39,780 nucleotides of DNA, taken from UHGV virus genome UHGV-1378608; one strand, written 5' to 3'. The translations under genes and the position numbers were made by a program. The DNA is from a virus. The notes under the pieces were generated by a model. The model made no database searches. It saw only the letters and a list, made by a program, of their open reading frames with translations, and was not told the DNA's origin. The stretch's first letter is position 1, and the number at the start of each line of letters is the position of its first letter. Below, piece after piece: positions 4,897 through 39,630 of this stretch.

Positions 4897-4911
4897 TTAC
4901 CTTTCAGGTGA
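4897..4911 (+). promoter_or_regulatory. Operator-like palindrome TTACCTTTCAGGTGA (TTACCT-N4-GGTAA family, 1 mismatch)
   Basis: Member of a recurring inverted-repeat motif; lies about 40 bp upstream of the LexA box. Confidence 0.4.
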
Positions 4912-4948: not shown

Positions 4949-4968
4949 TACTGTATATTTATACAGTT
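4949..4968 (+). promoter_or_regulatory. LexA (SOS) box TACTGTATATTTATACAGTT
   Basis: Perfect CTGT-N8-ACAG with AT-rich centre, near-identical to the E. coli consensus TACTGTATATATATACAGTA; 20 bp upstream of the ATG at 4988, with GGAGA RBS at 4975-4979. Confidence 0.75.
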
Positions 4969-4987
4969 ATTGCTTGGAGAAGATAAG

Positions 4988-5245
4988 ATGCAGCAGTATC
5001 ACTATCCACTGGAAGACGGATTTACCGAAAGGATTCACACGCCGGGAGGCGTCAGGTCACTGGTGGAGGGATCGCACTTGATGAAATTACTCCGGGCTCT
5101 CGATAAGGATGGATTTAATGTCGATGGCCCACTTGCCGAACTGACTGCACTGATTAACTACGTCACCAGCTCACAGATGTCTATGCAGGATCTGCAAACA
5201 CATCTCGACTATTGTGCCGAACAATTACGAAAACAAATCAGGTAA
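4988..5245 (+). CDS. Small LexA-controlled moron protein (85 aa), candidate SOS-inducible antirepressor
   Basis: In-frame internal ATG of ORF 4880-5245 preceded by RBS and LexA box; the ORF-track start at 4880 would place the LexA box and RBS inside coding sequence. No confident family match by eye. Confidence 0.5.
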   Translation: MQQYHYPLEDGFTERIHTPGGVRSLVEGSHLMKLLRALDKDGFNVDGPLAELTALINYVTSSQMSMQDLQTHLDYCAEQLRKQIR

Positions 5246-5288: not shown

Positions 5289-5429
5289 CTATGACAAACC
5301 TATGTACCCTGCTACACCAGATAATATCAAAACAACTGCTACAGCAAATTCACCGTCTTCAATGATACATTTACGATTCATAACGCCAAGGGCAACAAGC
5401 ACAAATACAACAAGAATAAAAGCAATCAT
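5289..5429 (-). CDS. Small hydrophobic peptide (46 aa, MIAFILVVFVLVALGVMNRKCIIEDGEFAVAVVLILSGVAGYIGLS)
   Basis: Not in the ORF track (under 60 aa); ATG at 5429 with AGGA 7 nt upstream; two hydrophobic segments; sits right after the 824-aa virion protein gene. Confidence 0.3.
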   Translation of the reverse strand: MIAFILVVFVLVALGVMNRKCIIEDGEFAVAVVLILSGVAGYIGLS

Positions 5430-5438
5430 TTCTCATCC

Positions 5439-7913
5439 TTATTGCGGAGTGACATCCTGTGGTCGCCACCAGTATGTCTGGTTAAACTCTTTCTTCGAAC
5501 GTTGCTCCATTTTACGCAAATAGCCTGGTGAAAAATACTCCTGCATCTGGTTAAAGATCATGTGATCAAGAGCTGCCTTCAAGTACCAGAGATTCGCACC
5601 TGGCATCAGCCCTTTCCCAAGTTTCACCAGATCACCACCAGTCTGCTCGTTCTTCCCTTCCACAGCATTTAATGGTATGCCCTGAGCTATCTTCACTACG
5701 TCATCAACCAGGCCAGCTACCGGGCCAAGCATCGACGCCAGCGCGCCGCTTCCGTATCTAGTGTGATCTGACAATAAAAAGTCACCGTAAAGGCCAAGAC
5801 CACCACCTTTCAGTAGAGCACCAAGCCAAAATTTAGCAGCATCTTCTCCTGTCATCTCGCGAGGATTACGACCAGACGCAAGGTCGTTAAGTTGCTGCGA
5901 CAAAGCGCCAAGAATGGTCGTACTAGCAATAAACGTCGCAATATATGCCGCACGCCCACCAGCAGACGGCATACCCATAGCGCGTGACCAGTGACGCATA
6001 ACCACCGAGATAGGGAACGATTTAAACAGGAAAACACTTCTCGTTAATTCACCTTTCCATGTTCCACGCTGAATACCAGAACCGGTTATCAGTTGCTCAC
6101 GTGCTCCCGGTGTAATAACAGCCATATCAACTTCTTCAGTTACGGCACCGAGCAGTTTACGCATTGCCTCAAATTTCACGCGTTCAGGCTCACCAAGATG
6201 TTTAACTGCTGAATCAGGGATACGCATAATGCTTTCCGGTGTCAGCATCGTATTATTACCGTTCCCCCAGTCCTCCTGTTGCGCCAGCTTCCATACGCTC
6301 CAGTCTGTGTCAGTAATCCCTTTGCTTTTCAGAATACGAAAATCAGAGTCATCGAGGCTACGAAGGTCTGGTGTCCGTGACACTACTTCTCCCAGGCTTC
6401 CCATCATGGTTACGCCATAGGCGCGCTTGTGCGCATCTGACCATGCTGTAAGCCCACTGGCACGCATTACCGCCGTTGCCGCCCAACGAGACACTGACGG
6501 CCCCATATTATCCATCGCCCAGCGGTTAACGCTGCCAAGTAGAGATTCCATCGCCAGACCAGCGCGTCGCGCCCGCGCAAGCTCAGTACGGTTCGTTGGG
6601 TCCATAGCTTCAAGCTGGTTGCGGAATAACTGGTTCATTGGAAGGTTGGTCACCTTCGCAGACAGATACATGGTTCCAAGATCAGAGAACGATGACAGCA
6701 ACGCGGATCCGAGTCTGCTGGCAACCAGCCAGTTGCGGATATTGTCAGACCATTGCGCGATGTGCGGATTCGCTACAGGCTGTGTCTTTCCGGAAATAAA
6801 GTTGTACAGATTCTCTGTGTTGTTCGCCAGCCGCTCGACTTTACCGGTTTTACTCGGGTTAGCTGTTGCCGTTTCTGCCTTAACCTGATCAAGAAGTGAG
6901 CGGAAAACATGATCGGGGTTTGGACCATATGTTTCCACCAGAGAAATATCTTTACTGATACCTTCCAGGTGACCGACCATGATTTCCCATAGAGAGCGAT
7001 CGCCATAAAGTTGTTGATATTGGAGATAGGAATCTGCATCTTTGAAATGTATCTGTCGTGATGCATTACCACGGTTAGCACGTGCGCCGGAAATTCGCAT
7101 TCCGGTATCAGTAAGCTTATTCAGCCCACCAGTAGCGATCGTGTTATAAGCCTCTCCAAGAAATGCAGACAACTCGGCATCGTTCATCAGTTGTCCATCG
7201 GATCGGGTATAATATTTGCGATCCAGCTTACCTATAACATCGCTAACCCACTTATCCTTTGATACCGCCCCAACCTTTTCCATAGAATGATGTTGAGGGA
7301 TCCCCCAGTTTTCGAGATAGCCAATGTCCCCACCAGCATCATTAAACCGGCGGCGCAGCAGCTCTGTAACTTCTCTCCACGCCTTAGCACCTTTTCTTGC
7401 TTTAGCATTGCCAGTATTTTGCCCCCGCATTTCATATACCAGGTCACGTACGCCCGCTTCATCTTCAAACAGACCAAAAAAGCGAGGATCAACTGCTTCA
7501 AATGCCTCCTGCAATTGACTCAATGCATAATCACGAGTGGCTTTTGTTCTGGATTCAACAGAGAGGAAATTCGATTTACCGTCTGCATTAAAAGCAATAG
7601 TACGGTTAAGAGCGCCAAGTTTCCCATCAGCCCCTTGATAGCTATTGATAAATTTATCCAATCTCTGACGTGCGGCTATAGTGAGAGCCACACGACGTTT
7701 CTTTAATGCCGCTTCTCGCTGTAATTCTTCAGATGCCAATTGTGCTGCACGATACAACCGTTCTGATTCGGAAAGTTGTCGCCACGACATCGGGTCATCA
7801 CGAGCAATGGAGCGCATATTTCGATAAATGCGGTCTTCAATGTTCTGTATTTCTCGCGCCGTTAACGTGCGCTGCGCCGCCTGCTGGACCGCTTGTATAC
7901 ATTCCTGTCTCAT
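5439..7913 (-). CDS. Large internal virion/ejection protein (824 aa)
   Basis: Size and position within a run of three large genes downstream of tail tubular genes, as in podovirus internal core/ejection proteins; no catalytic motif recognised. Confidence 0.55.
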   Translation of the reverse strand: MRQECIQAVQQAAQRTLTAREIQNIEDRIYRNMRSIARDDPMSWRQLSESERLYRAAQLASEELQREAALKKRRVALTIAARQRLDKFINSYQGADGKLGALNRTIAFNADGKSNFLSVESRTKATRDYALSQLQEAFEAVDPRFFGLFEDEAGVRDLVYEMRGQNTGNAKARKGAKAWREVTELLRRRFNDAGGDIGYLENWGIPQHHSMEKVGAVSKDKWVSDVIGKLDRKYYTRSDGQLMNDAELSAFLGEAYNTIATGGLNKLTDTGMRISGARANRGNASRQIHFKDADSYLQYQQLYGDRSLWEIMVGHLEGISKDISLVETYGPNPDHVFRSLLDQVKAETATANPSKTGKVERLANNTENLYNFISGKTQPVANPHIAQWSDNIRNWLVASRLGSALLSSFSDLGTMYLSAKVTNLPMNQLFRNQLEAMDPTNRTELARARRAGLAMESLLGSVNRWAMDNMGPSVSRWAATAVMRASGLTAWSDAHKRAYGVTMMGSLGEVVSRTPDLRSLDDSDFRILKSKGITDTDWSVWKLAQQEDWGNGNNTMLTPESIMRIPDSAVKHLGEPERVKFEAMRKLLGAVTEEVDMAVITPGAREQLITGSGIQRGTWKGELTRSVFLFKSFPISVVMRHWSRAMGMPSAGGRAAYIATFIASTTILGALSQQLNDLASGRNPREMTGEDAAKFWLGALLKGGGLGLYGDFLLSDHTRYGSGALASMLGPVAGLVDDVVKIAQGIPLNAVEGKNEQTGGDLVKLGKGLMPGANLWYLKAALDHMIFNQMQEYFSPGYLRKMEQRSKKEFNQTYWWRPQDVTPQ

Positions 7914-21417: not shown

Positions 21418-21507
21418 ATCAATGACTCCGTACGCAATTAAATTATTACCAATTTAACCATATATGATTTATTTATCGTAGGTAGTTGACATTTAACGCA
21501 CAAATTA

Positions 21508-21522
21508 TTACCTTTAAGGTAA
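21508..21522 (+). promoter_or_regulatory. Operator-like palindrome TTACCTTTAAGGTAA
   Basis: Perfect TTACCT-N4-GGTAA site in the non-coding gap between the late genes and the tRNA; a TTGACA hexamer lies at 21486-21491. Confidence 0.45.
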
Positions 21523-21845
21523 GCAAAGGGTTCATTCCGGTTATTAACCTGACTGGCTTGTCGTTAAATTGAACAGGTGGAGTGAGCTTTTATTTTGAGC
21601 AGTACGGCGTATGGCACATGCGCCGATAGCGGTATGGATACGTTTAAGGGGCACCCTCCCTTGCTCGGGCAAACGAACCAGGTAGCCGGAATGTGCAAGT
21701 CGAGCGGTTTTATTCCGCGCACGGGGATTCACCATCCCGGCGATTCGGTGTGACGCCTCGGAAGAGACGAGGGTACAACGATGAGAGCATTTATGGAGCT
21801 GCGACAAAGTGTGGCGCACTTAACAGGCTAAGTGCTCTCAGCGTT

Positions 21846-21922
21846 GTGGCATTAGCTCAGTTGGACAGAGCAACCGCCTTCTAAGCGGTTGGTCGCAGGT
21901 TCGAATCCTGCATGCCACGCCA
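21846..21922 (+). tRNA. tRNA-Arg, anticodon UCU
   Basis: 77 nt; acceptor stem GTGGCAT/ATGCCAC, D-arm GCTC-AGTTGGACA-GAGC, anticodon stem ACCGC/GCGGT with loop CTTCTAA, T-arm GCAGG-TTCGAAT-CCTGC, discriminator G and encoded CCA. Confidence 0.85.
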
Positions 21923-24875: not shown

Positions 24876-25468
24876 TGATTACCATCCTGACGTTCTTTGA
24901 GTCGCTTCCTGGCTGCTGCTATGCGATCAGCAATTGTCACATTCACATTAACATCCAGGCGTTCTTTGAATGCGTTGACGTCGACGTGCTTACCAATCAG
25001 TTCTAGGTTCTTCACCTTGTCAGGCCATTTAATTTTTTTGAGGATTGTCTCTATCGAGTCCTCGTTCATGTTCATGATGGTCGATGACAGATCAAAGCCG
25101 CTAAGCGTAGTGCGCCATATTTTCGGCCACTCGCGGATTGGCTTAAGACTCCCATCGTCGTTGAGGATATCAATCACGTCCATCTGGTCGATCTCCACCA
25201 GGCGCATGAGAACGTAATCAGCACTGACGCGCATTCGTTTGTTGCGCTCCTCCATCAACTCGGCAATCCGTTTTTTAATGCGTTCATCACGCATCATGAC
25301 ACTGGCTTTAACTGCCGCTGTATTTGGGGAGAATCCTGCGTTAATCGCTGCCTGAGTCTGGTTTTCAGGCGTTTTGATGTATGACTGGCAATAAGCCTCC
25401 TGCATTGCTGTTAGTGGCTTAAATTGCGTTGATTTGCGTTTATAGGTTTTAGGTTCAGCAGACATCAT
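24872..25468 (-). CDS. Terminase small subunit
   Basis: Likely start at MMSAEP (25468) with GGTGG RBS; the ORF-track N-terminal extension to 25546 runs through a terminator hairpin and direct repeats and is probably not coding. Confidence 0.7.
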   Translation of the reverse strand: MMSAEPKTYKRKSTQFKPLTAMQEAYCQSYIKTPENQTQAAINAGFSPNTAAVKASVMMRDERIKKRIAELMEERNKRMRVSADYVLMRLVEIDQMDVIDILNDDGSLKPIREWPKIWRTTLSGFDLSSTIMNMNEDSIETILKKIKWPDKVKNLELIGKHVDVNAFKERLDVNVNVTIADRIAAARKRLKERQDGNQ

Positions 25469-25475
25469 AACCACC

Positions 25476-25509
25476 GTGGTAATAGTTACCGTTGTGGTAA
25501 TAGTACCAT
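25476..25509 (-). promoter_or_regulatory. Tandem direct repeats GTGGTAATAGT(T)ACC x2 immediately upstream of the terminase small subunit (candidate late promoter/activator site)
   Basis: Two adjacent copies, each also an inverted arrangement GGTAA-TAG-TTACC, between the terminator and the TerS start. Confidence 0.35.
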
Positions 25510-25510
25510 G

Positions 25511-25537
25511 CAAAATAAAGCCGCCATAGTTGGCGGC
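25511..25537 (-). terminator. Rho-independent terminator separating the early-left operon from the packaging genes (minus strand)
   Basis: Stem gccgcca/tggcggc with 4-nt loop, followed on the minus strand by TTTATTTTG. Confidence 0.55.
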
Positions 25538-29851: not shown

Positions 29852-29866
29852 TTACCTCTAAGGTAA
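29852..29866 (+). promoter_or_regulatory. Operator-like palindrome TTACCTCTAAGGTAA
   Basis: Perfect TTACCT-N4-GGTAA site 4 bp upstream of the minus-strand ATG at 29848. Confidence 0.45.
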
Positions 29867-29913
29867 TTAAAAACCACATAAGACACGAAATCAATAGAGT
29901 TTAGAATATTTTG

Positions 29914-29928
29914 TTACCTCATAGGTAA
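29914..29928 (+). promoter_or_regulatory. Operator-like palindrome TTACCTCATAGGTAA
   Basis: Second perfect site in the same intergenic gap, about 60 bp from the first. Confidence 0.45.
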
Positions 29929-30766: not shown

Positions 30767-31563
30767 GCTTCAGGGCTGTTCCAGTGCGGAACGTTGTTAT
30801 CAGGTAATGTTGATTGCTTCTGTCTGCTAATCTGCAGCCGCCTTGCCAGCTTCTGCTCCCACTGTGCCTGATGGTATGCCTTACCCTCAGCCATCCAGTA
30901 AATTCTGAACTCTGCAAGTTCCTGTGCCGTTGGCAGACTGTCCAGGTAGATCCCCTGCAATGAGCTTTTCCGAAGAAAGTCATCTGATGGCTGCCATTGT
31001 TCATGCATGACAAATTTGCCTAATTGCCCTGGCCCACCAGGAGGAACAAAGTTATTCATCACGGCGTTGTTTGCGCCGGGGTCATGAGGCACAGAATCCC
31101 CGCTTTTTGTCCTGCTCTCCCTCTCTTGGTTAAATGACTGGTTATATGACTGGTTCTGGATCCCGTTTTTGGGATCATTCAACATCCCGTTTTTGGGATC
31201 ATTCAACATCCCGTTTTTGGGTATATTCCCGTTTTCGGTAACATTACCGTTTTCGGGTTCATTACCCCCTTCCCGGTTGCCTTTAATGTTCCCGTTTTTG
31301 GTTATATTAAGAGAGAAAACCCGCACTCTTTTCGTCGCTCCCTTTCTCTCTCCGGTATCTGAAATAAGCCCCATTTTCATGAGCGATATAAGCCCGGCCT
31401 GCACGGTTTTTTTGTTCAGGCAAGTGTCTTTAACGAGGCGTTCTATGCTGGGGTAGCAGAGGTTATATTCATCGGCTCTGTCAGCCATCGAGAGCAGTAT
31501 GAGCTTTAATGACGAGCTACCTGGATCTGTCTCCCAGGCCCAATCTGTTGCATGTCTGCTCAT
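30748..31563 (-). CDS. Replication initiator O-like protein with internal iteron-containing origin
   Basis: N-terminal winged-helix-like DNA-binding region; central Asn/Gly-rich repetitive segment encoded by DNA iterons; immediately upstream of the P-like gene. Confidence 0.65.
   Translation of the reverse strand: MSRHATDWAWETDPGSSSLKLILLSMADRADEYNLCYPSIERLVKDTCLNKKTVQAGLISLMKMGLISDTGERKGATKRVRVFSLNITKNGNIKGNREGGNEPENGNVTENGNIPKNGMLNDPKNGMLNDPKNGIQNQSYNQSFNQERESRTKSGDSVPHDPGANNAVMNNFVPPGGPGQLGKFVMHEQWQPSDDFLRKSSLQGIYLDSLPTAQELAEFRIYWMAEGKAYHQAQWEQKLARRLQISRQKQSTLPDNNVPHWNSPEAWEDFL
31158..31310. repeat. Origin-like iteron array (about 6 copies of ATCCCGTTTTTGGGATCATT-like repeat) with GATC sites
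   Basis: Two exact 24-bp tandem copies atcccgtttttgggatcattcaac followed by diverged copies (cccgttttcggtaacatt, accgttttcgggttcatt, ttcccgtttttggttatatt) and an AT-rich stretch. Confidence 0.65.
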
Positions 31564-31578
31564 GATTAATCTCCGCTA

Positions 31579-31842
31579 TCAGCTTGAATGTTGTGGGGAG
31601 GAATTAATCATGATCTGCTTAATCTCTGCCCTGATACGACGGTTTGATTCCATGGTGCACTCAACACAGTGTCCGTTGTAAACCCAGCGTTCACTGTCAT
31701 GTCCGTGCTTACATGTTTTTCCGGTGTAGTAGCGTTTAAGTCCGCGCTTTGCGGCATCAATACGTGTAATGATTTCCATGGTAAGCCCTGCTATTAGTAT
31801 TGGGATTACGGTCATTTTGTGCTGACACAAAAAAAAGATCAA
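31579..31842 (-). CDS. Small zinc-ribbon protein in CII-equivalent position
   Basis: TCKHGHDSERWVYNGHCVEC motif; first gene after the Cro-like gene and terminator; start uncertain (31842, 31815 or 31779). Confidence 0.4.
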   Translation of the reverse strand: MIFFLCQHKMTVIPILIAGLTMEIITRIDAAKRGLKRYYTGKTCKHGHDSERWVYNGHCVECTMESNRRIRAEIKQIMINSSPQHSS

Positions 31843-31859
31843 CCAGATTTGGTTTTTTA

Positions 31860-31874
31860 TTACCTTTGAGGTAC
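31860..31874 (+). promoter_or_regulatory. Operator-like palindrome TTACCTTTGAGGTAC (1 mismatch)
   Basis: Between the tR1-like terminator and the next minus-strand gene. Confidence 0.4.
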
Positions 31875-31880
31875 GAATAG

Positions 31881-31907
31881 ATATGAAAAGACCGCCGGGT
31901 GGCGGTC
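31881..31907 (-). terminator. tR1-like terminator after the Cro-like gene (minus strand)
   Basis: Perfect 7-bp stem gaccgcc/ggcggtc with 4-nt loop followed on the minus strand by TTTTC. Confidence 0.5.
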
Positions 31908-31929
31908 TACAGAGGGTTGTAGCTGGATA

Positions 31930-32160
31930 TCATGAGTAGAAGAAGTATGCCAGTTCTGCTTTTGAGCGCAGCCATTGTCTTGTTTTACAGGCTTTAAAAA
32001 GCCCATTCATCAATACTTTACCTGGCATTTTGCGCTTACCTGTTAAGTGAGTCTGGATATAGTGACTCGTCGTTCCGGCTTCCTGTGCGAAGGCTTCACG
32101 CTCATCCGGAGTAAGTGCAAGCCAGTGCTTTTTGAAATCGAAATGTTCGTTATCGCTCAT
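31930..32160 (-). CDS. Cro-like HTH regulator (76 aa)
   Basis: Small protein with HTH-like segment REAFAQEAGTTSHYIQTHL; first gene of the leftward operon, divergent from the repressor gene. Confidence 0.5.
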   Translation of the reverse strand: MSDNEHFDFKKHWLALTPDEREAFAQEAGTTSHYIQTHLTGKRKMPGKVLMNGLFKACKTRQWLRSKAELAYFFYS

Positions 32161-32185
32161 AGCTATTGCCTGATATTTATTTCAG

Positions 32186-32214
32186 ATAATAAATATTCAC
32201 CCATAAGGTAACAA
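32186..32214 (-). promoter_or_regulatory. PR-like promoter for the leftward operon (TTGTTA-17-TATTAT on minus strand)
   Basis: -35 and -10 hexamers with 17-bp spacer that contains an operator half-palindrome; about 20 nt upstream of the Cro-like start. Confidence 0.45.
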
Positions 32215-32259
32215 AAATCAAGGATAGTTACCTATGGGGTGCATTTACCTGTTGGGTAA
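32197..32259. promoter_or_regulatory. OR-like tripartite operator (three TTACCT-N4-GGTAA-type sites)
   Basis: Sites at 32197-32211 (tcacccataaggtaa), 32228-32242 (degenerate) and 32245-32259 (ttacctgttgggtaa, perfect) in the divergent region between the Cro-like and repressor genes. Confidence 0.55.
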
Positions 32260-32314
32260 TATTGCTTTAAATTGAATCATCTACTGATTCATATATGAGG
32301 CGATTTTCCAGAAA

Positions 32315-32899
32315 ATGAAAAGTATCCAGGACGTCCGCAGGCAAAATCTCAACGACTTGATCGACCGTGAATTCAATGGTGTTCAGACGCGGATGGCAGA
32401 AAAACTTGGAACTCAGGCAAATCTGGTAAACCGCTGGGCTCTTGGCAAGAAGGTTATCGGCGACCAGGTTGCGCGAAAAATTGAAGCTGCCGCCAATAAA
32501 CCACGTAACTGGCTTGATATCGATCGCTCGCTTTCTCAGGAAGGTTTTCAGCCTGTCGGCCCGAGCGATATAGGTCAGCTGGCGGCTCACAACCTGGAAC
32601 GCTGGATGAGCGAAAGCCGCGACCTTTCAACACAGGGAAAACTTCACCGCGCATCCGGCGTCGCCCAGGTGACAATCAGCCGCCTGTTAAACAATGAAGT
32701 CAGCGTTTCCATTTCCACCCTGGAGAATGTTGCATCCGCATTCGGGCGTCACGGCTATGAATTACTGATTCACCCGCACGACCCTGCGACTATCAACTAT
32801 GATCGCTCGCGCTACGCATTGTTACCTGAAACAGAGAAGGCAAAGATCGAAAGTTACATTGAATTTGTCATCAACCAGAACGAAAAAAGCAAACAATAA
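32315..32899 (+). CDS. Phage repressor candidate, tandem XRE-type HTH, no recognisable S24 peptidase domain
   Basis: 194 aa; two HTH-like segments (VQTRMAEKLGTQANLVNRW and GVAQVTISRLLNNEVSVSISTLENVASAF); transcribed from the OR-like region toward the OL-like region, as lambda cI is. Confidence 0.55.
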   Translation: MKSIQDVRRQNLNDLIDREFNGVQTRMAEKLGTQANLVNRWALGKKVIGDQVARKIEAAANKPRNWLDIDRSLSQEGFQPVGPSDIGQLAAHNLERWMSESRDLSTQGKLHRASGVAQVTISRLLNNEVSVSISTLENVASAFGRHGYELLIHPHDPATINYDRSRYALLPETEKAKIESYIEFVINQNEKSKQ

Positions 32900-32920
32900 A
32901 ATCATATTTTTCAGTAAGTA

Positions 32921-32946
32921 AGCCGCCTCATGGCGGCTTTTTTATT
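32921..32946 (+). terminator. Rho-independent terminator after the repressor gene
   Basis: Stem agccgcc/ggcggct followed by TTTTTTATT. Confidence 0.6.
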
Positions 32947-32956
32947 GCCTATGCGA

Positions 32957-33033
32957 TTACCTTATGGGTAATTTTTTTAACTCATATCTATTGACATCAA
33001 ACCAGATACGCATAATTATTACCTCAACGGTAA
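32957..33033 (+). promoter_or_regulatory. OL/PL-like region: two perfect operator palindromes flanking a TTGACA -35 hexamer
   Basis: ttaccttatgggtaa (32957-32971), TTGACA (32991-32996), AATTAT-like -10 about 17 bp downstream, ttacctcaacggtaa (33019-33033) overlapping the -10/+1 region. Confidence 0.55.
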
Positions 33034-33052
33034 CAGACCGAGGTAACAAGTT

Positions 33053-33202
33053 ATGCAGTGGAAAATCATCAACGGTTGGTACTGCGTTACTGCATGCGGA
33101 TTCATGAGCTGGAAGTTCCGCACCTTACAGGAAGGCATTAAGTGGGCTTTCGTCAGCAAAGAAGCTCGCGATGTAGCCAACGATAACGAGATATGGGAGT
33201 AG
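33053..33202 (+). CDS. Small ORF (49 aa) at head of rightward early operon
   Basis: ATG with GAGG RBS 10 nt upstream; below ORF-track size cutoff; coding status unverified. Confidence 0.3.
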   Translation: MQWKIINGWYCVTACGFMSWKFRTLQEGIKWAFVSKEARDVANDNEIWE

Positions 33203-39615: not shown

Positions 39616-39630
39616 ATACCTTTAAGGTAA
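39616..39630 (+). promoter_or_regulatory. Operator-like palindrome ATACCTTTAAGGTAA upstream of int, nested in a longer inverted repeat
   Basis: Flanked by tgacggtat (39601-39609) and ataccgtca (39630-39638); about 45 bp upstream of the int start. Confidence 0.45.

What the first reader, a model, noticed from the sequence alone, without database searches (positions are those of the whole stretch)
31860..33060. Lambda-like immunity switch in mirror orientation with a non-canonical two-HTH repressor
The layout reproduces lambda logic: Cro-like gene (minus), a PR-like promoter whose 17-bp spacer contains an operator, three operators in the divergent region, a repressor gene read toward a second operator pair, a terminator, then a PL-like promoter for the recombination operon, and a tR1-like terminator after the Cro-like gene. 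The repressor itself has two HTH-like segments and no obvious Ser-Lys peptidase domain, so induction is probably indirect.
Basis: partly seen in the sequence, partly recalled or inferred. Interest (0 to 1): 0.55.

Follow-up and report, generated by a model that had tools for sequence, protein, structure and literature searches.

The report
Known phiV10/epsilon15-type phage immunity switch
This is the lysis-lysogeny control region of a common phiV10/epsilon15-like E. coli prophage; its repressor and SOS-controlled antirepressor belong to the Rep-Ant system already solved in Salmonella phage SPC32H, so the reading is correct but the feature is ordinary.

Summary
At 31860-33060 a 194-aa repressor gene (+) and a 76-aa Cro-like gene (-) diverge from a three-operator region. 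Two more operators flank a strong promoter for the recombination operon, and each regulator gene ends in a hairpin terminator. The operator is TTACC-N5-GGTAA, with 14 sites in the window against about 0.6 expected.

The window is a complete Uetakevirus genome, 96-99% identical to phiv142-3 and phiV10. The repressor is 99.5-100% identical to proteins already annotated as repressor. The vB_EcoP_ZX5 protein, 99.5% identical here, blocked lytic growth when overexpressed. It aligns full length with SPC32H Rep (PDB 5D50_A, E=3.5e-42, 43% identity). That protein has a DNA-binding domain, a middle dimerisation domain and a C-terminal tetramerisation/Ant-binding domain.

Indirect induction is confirmed. 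An 85-aa Ant homologue (88% identical to 5D50_E) lies at 4988-5245 behind a near-consensus LexA box. There is no S24 peptidase domain.

It differs from lambda in one respect: conserved operators also sit at six other loci. The epsilon15 GenBank record already annotates such scattered repressor sites. Verdict: already known, low interest.

The parts
32315..32899 (+). rep: 194-aa prophage repressor of the SPC32H Rep type (N-terminal DNA-binding domain, middle dimerisation domain carrying the HTH_3 signature, C-terminal tetramerisation/Ant-binding domain)
   Evidence: phmmer against PDB: 5D50_A 'Repressor', E=3.5e-42, residues 1-190. 43% identity to SPC32H Rep. 99.5-100% identical to annotated repressors of phiV10, phiv142-3 and ZX5. 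Pfam HTH_3 at 106-147 and YdaS at 21-61, with no S24. Domain names from PMC9986798.
31930..32160 (-). Cro-like gene, 76 aa, first gene of the rightward-type early transcript
   Evidence: phrog_35 'transcriptional repressor', E=5.7e-13. No Pfam or PDB sequence hit. Conserved position opposite rep in all five genomes.
32186..32214 (-). PR-like promoter: TTGTTA, 17-nt spacer, TATTAT
   Evidence: Consensus scan, 9/12 matches. Overlapped by operator 32197-32211. The same arrangement is seen in phiv142-3 and Tyrion.
32197..32211 (.). Operator on the cro side (TCACCCATAAGGTAA, 1 mismatch)
32228..32242 (.). Middle operator (TTACCTATGGGGTGC, 2 mismatches), 17 bp centre to centre from the rep-side operator
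   Evidence: The orthologous site is a perfect palindrome in SPC32H and BUCT711.
32245..32259 (.). Operator on the rep side (TTACCTGTTGGGTAA, perfect). It overlaps the candidate rep promoter -35.
32244..32272 (+). Candidate rep promoter (TTTACC, 17-nt spacer, TTAAAT). Inferred only.
   Evidence: My reading: a TTAAAT/TTTAAT element lies 7 nt past the operator in all four lineages. The scan did not call it.
32920..32939 (+). Intrinsic terminator after rep
   Evidence: z=-5.35. Annotated at the same place in phiV10.
32957..32971 (.). Upstream OL-type operator (perfect), 19 nt before the -35
32991..33019 (+). PL-like promoter TTGACA-17-AATTAT for the recombination operon (49-aa, 344-aa and 101-aa proteins, PDDEXK exonuclease, RecT)
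   Evidence: 10/12 matches. Conserved ctaTTGACA and -10 in five genomes. Operon content.
33019..33033 (.). Downstream OL-type operator (perfect). Its first T is the last T of the -10. It lies 62 bp from the upstream operator.
31889..31908 (-). Intrinsic terminator after the Cro-like gene
   Evidence: z=-4.3. Annotated in phiV10.
31860..31874 (.). Operator-like site (1 mismatch) just past that terminator. On the minus strand it is followed by a conserved TTGATC, 16-17-nt spacer, (C/A)AAAAT element (31842-31814).
   Evidence: The restart-promoter reading is an inference.
4988..5245 (+). ant: 85-aa antirepressor, the inducer of the switch
   Evidence: phmmer 5D50_E 'Anti-repressor protein', E=4e-46. 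88% identity to SPC32H Ant.
4949..4968 (.). LexA box TACTGTATATTTATACAGTT upstream of ant
   Evidence: One of three perfect CTGT-N8-ACAG matches in the window. Sequence. Conserved in five genomes.
4897..4911 (.). Operator (1 mismatch) between ant and the divergent tail-fibre gene
   Evidence: Annotated as a repressor site in epsilon15.
29852..29928 (-). Second PL-type unit: two perfect operators 62 bp apart flanking cTATTGATT-17-TTTAAT, directly before the DUF1064/resolvase-like gene
   Evidence: The scan did not call this promoter because it lacks A at -10 position 2.
25468..25500 (-). Two operators 18 bp apart, between a terminator (25537-25520) and the terS start codon
   Evidence: Annotated as a repressor site in epsilon15.
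21486..21522 (+). TTGACA, 16 nt, then a perfect operator, upstream of tRNA-Arg(tct) at 21846-21922
   Evidence: Annotated as a repressor site in epsilon15.
39616..39630 (.). Operator-like site (ATACC arm in all lineages) about 50 bp upstream of int

Best explanation
This is the immunity (lysis-lysogeny) region of a phiV10-type Uetakevirus prophage.

The 194-aa Rep binds 15-bp palindromes, TTACC-N5-GGTAA, through its N-terminal HTH domain.

In a lysogen, Rep would occupy these sites:
- the three sites between rep and the Cro-like gene, blocking the PR-like promoter and probably limiting its own promoter;
- the two sites that bracket the PL-like promoter;
- equivalent sites at further early, late and accessory promoters.

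Rep cannot cleave itself. After DNA damage, LexA leaves the box in front of ant (4949-4968). The 85-aa Ant is then made, binds the Rep C-terminal domains, splits the tetramer and pulls Rep off DNA, and the early promoters fire.

Shown here: homology, operators, layout and the LexA box. Shown elsewhere: repression on overexpression of the near-identical (99.5%) ZX5 repressor, and the Rep/Ant structures and tetramer model for the 43%-identical SPC32H protein. Inferred: which promoter each site controls, autoregulation, and DNA looping between sites 62 bp apart.
For: - Identity of the genome: 98% nucleotide identity to phiv142-3 and phiV10 across the region, and the whole window is collinear with phiv142-3.
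- Rep is a full-length homologue of 5D50_A (E=3.5e-42). Ant matches 5D50_E (E=4e-46, 88% identity).
- There is no S24 domain.
- A near-consensus LexA box precedes ant and is conserved in five genomes.
- Operator enrichment: 14 sites against 0.59 expected.
- At 12 orthologous operator positions in four lineages the arms are 94% identical, the centres 50% and the flanks 61%.
- The recognition-helix motif NLVNRW is conserved between the window Rep and SPC32H Rep, in line with the conserved operator arms.
- Overexpression of the ZX5 repressor (99.5% identical to the window protein) removed free phage and cut lysis-gene transcripts by more than 99.9% (PMC9782041).
[quoted passage not shown] Its architecture is DNA-binding domain, middle dimerisation domain, C-terminal domain (PMC9986798).
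- phiV10-species prophages are induced by a DNA-damaging microcin (bioRxiv 10.64898/2026.05.26.727859).
- The epsilon15 record annotates ATTACC-N5-GGTAAT as repressor-binding sites.
Against: - No binding, footprinting or transcript-mapping data exist for this exact phage in the library I could search.
- The primary SPC32H papers (Kim & Ryu 2013; Kim et al. 2016) and the epsilon15 and phiV10 genome papers are not held. Their operator definitions could not be read.
- Rep is only 43% identical to the solved protein, so the tetramer and trans-binding model is transferred, not shown.
- The generic promoter scan is not above chance.
- A perfect operator sits over the candidate rep promoter. This fits autorepression but leaves open how rep is kept on in a lysogen.
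Confidence: 0.9

Rival explanations
1. Both HTH-like segments read DNA, so one chain or one dimer contacts the operator with two different heads. This would be a truly novel two-HTH repressor.
For: Pfam's stronger HTH hit falls on the second segment: HTH_3 at residues 106-147, E=1.2e-9, against E=3e-4 for the N-terminal one.
Against: The operators are symmetric palindromes with identical arms, which fits one head type used twice. In the solved homologue, the region matching residues 89-190 forms the dimer/tetramer and Ant-binding part, and the DNA-binding domain is N-terminal. No asymmetric or extended motif was seen beside the 15-17-bp palindrome. The two segments show no detectable similarity to each other.
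Confidence: 0.05
2. It is a lambda CI-type switch, with induction by RecA-stimulated self-cleavage of the repressor.
For: The gene layout resembles lambda. phiV10-species prophages respond to DNA damage.
Against: There is no Peptidase_S24 domain or Ser-Lys module. The protein is homologous over its full length to a repressor with a different architecture. A LexA-controlled Ant gene is present and accounts for the SOS response.
Confidence: 0.02
3. The palindromes are mainly sites for another protein, such as the Cro-like protein or a late regulator, and Rep acts elsewhere.
For: No binding data for this phage. Several sites lie next to ribosome-binding sites or within late regions, where a lysogeny repressor is not obviously needed.
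Against: The sites bracket both divergent early promoters next to rep. SPC32H Rep is reported to bind palindromic sites. The epsilon15 annotators assign the same motif to the repressor. Shared use by Cro, as in lambda, is compatible with the main explanation.
Confidence: 0.04

Closest known systems
Rep-Ant antirepression module of Salmonella phage SPC32H (PDB 5D4Z, 5D50; Kim & Ryu 2013, Kim et al. 2016, cited through PMC9638917 and PMC9986798)
   Same: Same genus. Rep is homologous over its full length (43% identity) and Ant is 88% identical. A LexA box precedes ant. The operator arms are the same (TTACC/GGTAA) and operator spacings match: 17 bp in the divergent region and 62 bp around PL.
   Different: Different host (E. 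coli) and a divergent Rep sequence. The operator centres differ (mostly T/G-rich here, A/T-rich in SPC32H). No biochemistry exists for this variant.
phiV10 gp40, phiv142-3 Orf43 and vB_EcoP_ZX5 ORF21 repressors
   Same: The protein is 99.5-100% identical and the surrounding DNA is 98% identical. The phiV10 record already notes two HTH motifs and the three terminators. ZX5 ORF21 was tested by overexpression.
   Different: This window lacks the Bro-N-type 'anti-repressor' found in phiv142-3, phiV10 and ZX5. It carries only the small SPC32H-type Ant, which those records label hypothetical.
Phage lambda immunity region (cI, cro, OR1-3, OL, PR, PL, PRM, tR1)
   Same: Divergent repressor and Cro-like genes around three operators. 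A second operator cluster lies at a leftward-type promoter for the recombination genes. A terminator follows the Cro-like gene.
   Different: No S24 autocleavage domain. OL has two operators 62 bp apart rather than three adjacent ones. No N homologue was recognised. Operators are also found at six other loci. The repressor's oligomerisation domains are unrelated.
LexA-controlled antirepressor induction in coliphage 186 (Tum), Gifsy and Fels-2 prophages, and N15
   Same: A non-cleavable repressor is inactivated by a small protein whose gene is repressed by LexA (PMC3121763 is listed under the title on trans-acting antirepressors; details of 186 and N15 are from my own knowledge).
   Different: Ant here is homologous to the SPC32H protein, not to those antirepressors. 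No hit to them appeared in the PDB or PHROG searches.

Membership tests
SPC32H-type Rep-Ant immunity module (Uetakevirus) | Repressor homologous over its full length to SPC32H Rep (DNA-binding, middle dimerisation and C-terminal domains) | tested here: met
   phmmer 5D50_A, E=3.5e-42, query 1-190 to chain 2-197. BLASTP 43% identity with 7 gap positions.
SPC32H-type Rep-Ant immunity module (Uetakevirus) | Small antirepressor homologous to SPC32H Ant encoded elsewhere in the genome | tested here: met
   ORF 4988-5245: 5D50_E at E=4e-46, 88% identity.
SPC32H-type Rep-Ant immunity module (Uetakevirus) | LexA box overlapping the ant promoter | tested here: met
   TACTGTATATTTATACAGTT at 4949-4968, ending 19 nt before the ant ATG at 4988 (20 nt from the last base of the box to the A of the ATG). 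It is conserved in five genomes. The promoter hexamers themselves are my reading and were not called by the scan.
SPC32H-type Rep-Ant immunity module (Uetakevirus) | Repressor lacks a self-cleavage (S24) domain | tested here: met
   No Peptidase_S24 hit at E<=0.1.
SPC32H-type Rep-Ant immunity module (Uetakevirus) | Palindromic operators shared with the genus | tested here: met
   TTACC-N5-GGTAA occurs 13-18 times per genome in five genomes, against about 1-1.5 in shuffles, at orthologous positions. epsilon15 annotation agrees.
SPC32H-type Rep-Ant immunity module (Uetakevirus) | Rep binds DNA as a tetramer, and an Ant tetramer disassembles it | not testable with these tools
   Known only for SPC32H. 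Needs biochemistry.
Lambda CI / LexA-like autocleaving repressors | C-terminal S24 peptidase domain with a Ser-Lys dyad and a cleavage site | tested here: not met
   No S24 hit. The C-terminal half matches the SPC32H Rep dimerisation and tetramerisation domains instead.
Lambdoid immunity-region layout | Divergent repressor and cro genes around a tripartite operator, plus a second operator cluster at a leftward early promoter | tested here: met
Lambdoid immunity-region layout | Repressor sites confined to OL and OR, with downstream expression through N/Q antitermination | tested here: not met
   Operators lie at six further conserved loci. No N- or Q-like protein was recognised among the ORFs scanned. 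Only a subset of ORFs was scanned.

The most novel reading that the evidence does not exclude
Rep may act as a genome-wide repressor rather than a two-locus one. On this reading each early transcription unit ends at a terminator and restarts at its own Rep-controlled promoter (after the Cro-like gene and after the replication genes). Rep would also directly gate terS, a tRNA-Arg unit, int and the ant/tail-fibre region. Operator pairs exactly 62 bp apart would be bridged by one tetramer. This would replace a lambda-style antitermination cascade with direct multi-promoter repression. The scattered sites are already annotated in silico for epsilon15, so only the mechanism would be new.
Probability: 0.3. 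Interest if true: 0.3.

Novelty: already known. Interest (0 to 1): 0.12.

Why it matters
It matters little as a discovery. The module is present in about one in ten complete E. coli genomes, and its mechanism has been solved in a sister phage.

Two practical points follow. In phiV10-like E. coli phage records the true SPC32H-type Ant is labelled 'hypothetical', while a Bro-domain protein carries the antirepressor name. And the operator map gives a ready set of predictions for ChIP-seq or TSS mapping in these widespread prophages, some of which modify the O157 antigen.

Tried and rejected
- I tried to read the primary sources: Kropinski 2007 (PMC2698709), Kim & Ryu 2013 (PMC3807360 and its DOI), and Kim 2016 (PMC4983836 and its DOI). 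None is held, so I used citing papers and GenBank annotation instead.
- Full-text searches for an operator description in this genus found only the ZX5 paper.
- I tested whether the two HTH-like halves are an internal duplication. No alignment was found.
- I tested whether the Cro-like protein has a solved relative by sequence. None was found.
- I ran the generic promoter scan over the extra operator loci. It did not call the P3, terS, tRNA or post-terminator promoters, so those rest on comparative reading only.
- I considered a PRE-like promoter on the rep strand downstream of the Cro-like gene, because a PL-like spacer, -10 and operator copy lies at 31841-31874 (repeat D3). Its -35 is absent, and a conserved minus-strand TTGATC/CAAAAT element explains the same bases, so I left it as an untested note.
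- I did not run the large protein searches or a structure prediction. The PDB sequence match was already decisive.
Full report
**What is in the sequence.** The stretch 31860-33060 contains the following, from left to right:

- an operator-like palindrome at 31860-31874;
- a hairpin terminator on the minus strand at 31908-31889;
- a 76-aa gene on the minus strand at 31930-32160;
- a 155-bp divergent region;
- a 194-aa gene on the plus strand at 32315-32899;
- a hairpin terminator at 32920-32939;
- a strong promoter-like site, TTGACA-17-AATTAT, at 32991-33019, bracketed by two perfect palindromes at 32957-32971 and 33019-33033;
- the start of a plus-strand operon at 33053.

That operon encodes small proteins, a PDDEXK exonuclease and RecT.

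The divergent region holds three copies of the palindrome: 32197-32211 with one mismatch, 32228-32242 with two, and 32245-32259 perfect. It also holds a minus-strand promoter-like site, TTGTTA-17-TATTAT, at 32214-32186. The first palindrome fills the spacer of that promoter.

Both hairpins fold far better than shuffled sequence (z=-4.3 and -5.35) and are followed by U-rich tracts.

The palindrome TTACC-N5-GGTAA, allowing one mismatch, occurs 14 times in the window against 0.59 expected. No shuffle reached that number. The generic promoter scan is not above chance on its own. The operators are statistically solid. The promoters rest on context.

**What the window is.** The region is 98% identical to Escherichia phages phiv142-3 and phiV10 and to a dozen relatives. 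The whole window is collinear with the 39.3-kb phiv142-3 genome. It is therefore a complete phiV10-type Uetakevirus, an epsilon15-like podophage.

The same 1.2-kb module is found at 95-99% identity in 540 of 5,426 complete E. coli genomes.

The phiV10 GenBank record already calls the 194-aa protein a putative transcriptional repressor with 'two helix-turn-helix motifs'. It also annotates terminators at the same three relative positions.

The vB_EcoP_ZX5 paper states that the ZX5, phiV10 and phiv142-3 repressors have the same sequence, and that protein is 99.5% identical to the window's. Overexpressing it eliminated free phage and reduced endolysin and holin transcripts by more than 99.9% (PMC9782041).

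**The repressor.** Pfam finds HTH_3 at residues 106-147 and a weak YdaS/Cro-type HTH at 21-61. It finds no S24 peptidase.

Against the PDB, the protein aligns over its full length with the repressor of Salmonella phage SPC32H (5D50_A, E=3.5e-42). Its C-terminal half aligns with the 92-198 fragment (5D4Z). Identity is 43%.

Papers that discuss those structures describe Rep as an N-terminal DNA-binding domain, a middle dimerisation domain and a C-terminal domain that both tetramerises Rep and binds the antirepressor (PMC9986798). They report that Rep binds palindromic sites as a tetramer. In that tetramer, each pair of DNA-binding domains comes from different dimers. The tetrameric Ant binds two Rep dimers and breaks the tetramer (PMC9638917).

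By homology, however, it is the dimerisation domain. The two halves show no detectable similarity to each other.

The N-terminal helix motif NLVNRW is conserved between the two repressors. This fits the conserved operator arms described below.

**Induction.** The genome supplies the mechanism.

At 4988-5245 lies an 85-aa ORF that is 88% identical to SPC32H Ant (5D50_E, E=4e-46). Ending 19 nt upstream of its start codon is TACTGTATATTTATACAGTT at 4949-4968. This is one of only three perfect CTGT-N8-ACAG matches in the window and is close to the LexA consensus as I know it.

The operator, the LexA box, the ribosome-binding site and the gene are all conserved in SPC32H, phiv142-3, Tyrion and BUCT711.

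A recent preprint reports that phiV10-species prophages are induced by a DNA-damaging microcin.

The Bro-domain 'anti-repressor' tested in the ZX5 paper is absent from this window. Its phiv142-3 counterpart has a C-terminal part 44% identical to the small Ant.

**Comparative evidence for the operators.** I compared the window with phiv142-3, SPC32H, Tyrion and Klebsiella phage BUCT711. Their Rep proteins are 99.5%, 43%, 78% and 45% identical to the window's.

Each genome has 13-18 sites with at most one mismatch, against about 1-1.5 in shuffles. The sites sit at the same places relative to orthologous genes.

At 12 orthologous positions in four lineages, pairwise identity is 94% in the arms, 50% in the five central bases and 61% in the flanks.

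Spacing is also conserved. It is 17 bp between the two rep-side sites and 62 bp (63 in one genome) between the two sites around the PL-like promoter. In that promoter the last T of the -10 is the first T of the downstream operator.

**Where it departs from lambda.** The same motif marks further conserved loci:

- A second PL-type unit lies on the minus strand at 29928-29852. Two perfect operators 62 bp apart flank cTATTGATT-17-TTTAAT. The unit sits just after the replication genes and directly before a DUF1064/resolvase-like gene.
- Two operators 18 bp apart lie between a terminator and the terS start codon (25500-25468).
- TTGACA followed after 16 nt by a perfect operator lies upstream of a plus-strand tRNA-Arg (21486-21522; tRNA at 21846-21922).
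- A site lies between ant and the tail-fibre gene (4897-4911).
- A site lies about 50 bp upstream of int (39616-39630).
- The site just past the Cro-like gene's terminator (31860-31874) is followed on the minus strand by a conserved TTGATC, 16-17-nt spacer, (C/A)AAAAT element. This could restart transcription into the replication genes.

The tool's promoter scan did not call any of these additional promoters. They remain inferences from conservation.

This distribution is not new either. The epsilon15 GenBank record annotates ATTACC-N5-GGTAAT as 'repressor, lysogeny' binding sites at seven places, including before terS, before the portal-side unit, before the ant homologue, three sites on the PL side of rep, and one after the replication genes. 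Its repressor CDS note cites 5D50_A.

**Mechanism, with its status.** In a lysogen, Rep tetramers occupy the palindromes and block the PR-like and PL-like promoters. The operator positions are shown here. Binding is inferred from SPC32H and from the ZX5 overexpression result.

The perfect operator at 32245-32259 overlaps a candidate rep promoter, TTTACC-17-TTAAAT. That candidate is conserved in position in four lineages but was not called by the scan. The overlap suggests negative autoregulation. This step is inferred with low confidence.

DNA damage removes LexA from the ant promoter. Ant then disassembles the Rep tetramer and the early promoters fire. The box and gene are shown here. The mechanism is transferred from SPC32H.

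The Cro-like protein (phrog_35, E=5.7e-13) presumably then shuts off rep. That step is inferred.

**Verdict.** The system is already known. It has a solved homologue, an experimentally tested protein 99.5% identical to the window's, and public annotation of the operators. It is also common in E. coli. Interest is low.

The limits of this assessment are as follows. The primary SPC32H, epsilon15 and phiV10 papers were not available to read. No binding or transcript data exist for this exact phage in the searchable library.

Noticed in passing
window 4949-5245: An SPC32H-type antirepressor gene (85 aa, 88% identical to 5D50_E) lies behind a near-consensus LexA box. The orthologue in phiv142-3 (Orf7) is annotated only as a hypothetical protein.
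   Followed up: yes
window 29852-29928 (minus strand): A second PL-type unit: two perfect operators exactly 62 bp apart flank cTATTGATT-17-TTTAAT, just before the DUF1064/resolvase-like gene. The geometry is conserved in all five Uetakevirus genomes compared.
   Followed up: partly
window 25468-25537 (minus strand): In order: a terminator, a TGgTACTAT extended -10-like element fused to an operator, a second operator 18 bp away, and the terS start codon. This suggests direct repressor control of the packaging/late operon. The site is also annotated in epsilon15.
   Followed up: partly
window 21486-21922: TTGACA, 16 nt, then a perfect operator on the plus strand, upstream of tRNA-Arg(tct) at 21846-21922 (+). 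This is opposite to the flanking structural genes. The phiv142-3 record places the equivalent tRNA on the other strand, which looks like an annotation slip.
   Followed up: partly
window 31814-31874: Past the Cro-like gene's terminator lies an operator-like site, followed by a conserved minus-strand TTGATC, 16-17-nt spacer, (C/A)AAAAT element. The same bases, read on the plus strand, copy the PL spacer, -10 and operator (AACCAGAT...TTATTACC). In Tyrion the copy matches Tyrion's own PL. This could be a restart promoter, a PRE-like promoter or a relic of an inverted duplication. It is unresolved.
   Followed up: partly
window 39616-39630: An operator-like site with an ATACC arm in all five genomes lies about 50 bp upstream of int. 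It is embedded in a larger inverted repeat, GACGGTA...TACCGTC. It may be a repressor site or an integrase/IHF-related site.
   Followed up: no
window 31127-31266: Iteron-like tandem repeats lie inside the DnaT/HTH_36 replication-initiator gene: 24 nt x 2.6 at 100% match, 18 nt x 3.1, and 12 nt x 2.4. This is probably the replication origin, as with lambda ori inside gene O.
   Followed up: no
L003 (phiv142-3) 5424-6080 compared with window 4979-5212: The Bro-N 'anti-repressor' of phiv142-3 (and, by annotation, those of phiV10 and ZX5) has a C-terminal part 44% identical to the small Ant. It is thus a Bro-N::Ant-like fusion. This window lacks it.
   Followed up: partly
window 32315-32899 and 4988-5245 compared with L004 (SPC32H): Ant is far more conserved than its target: 88% against 43% identity between this phage and SPC32H. 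The operator arms and the NLVNRW helix motif are also conserved. This hints at cross-acting antirepressors, or even cross-immunity, within the genus.
   Followed up: no
window 31860-33060 in E. coli genomes: The immunity module occurs at 95-99% identity in 540 of 5,426 complete E. coli genomes, almost always once per genome and on the chromosome.
   Followed up: yes
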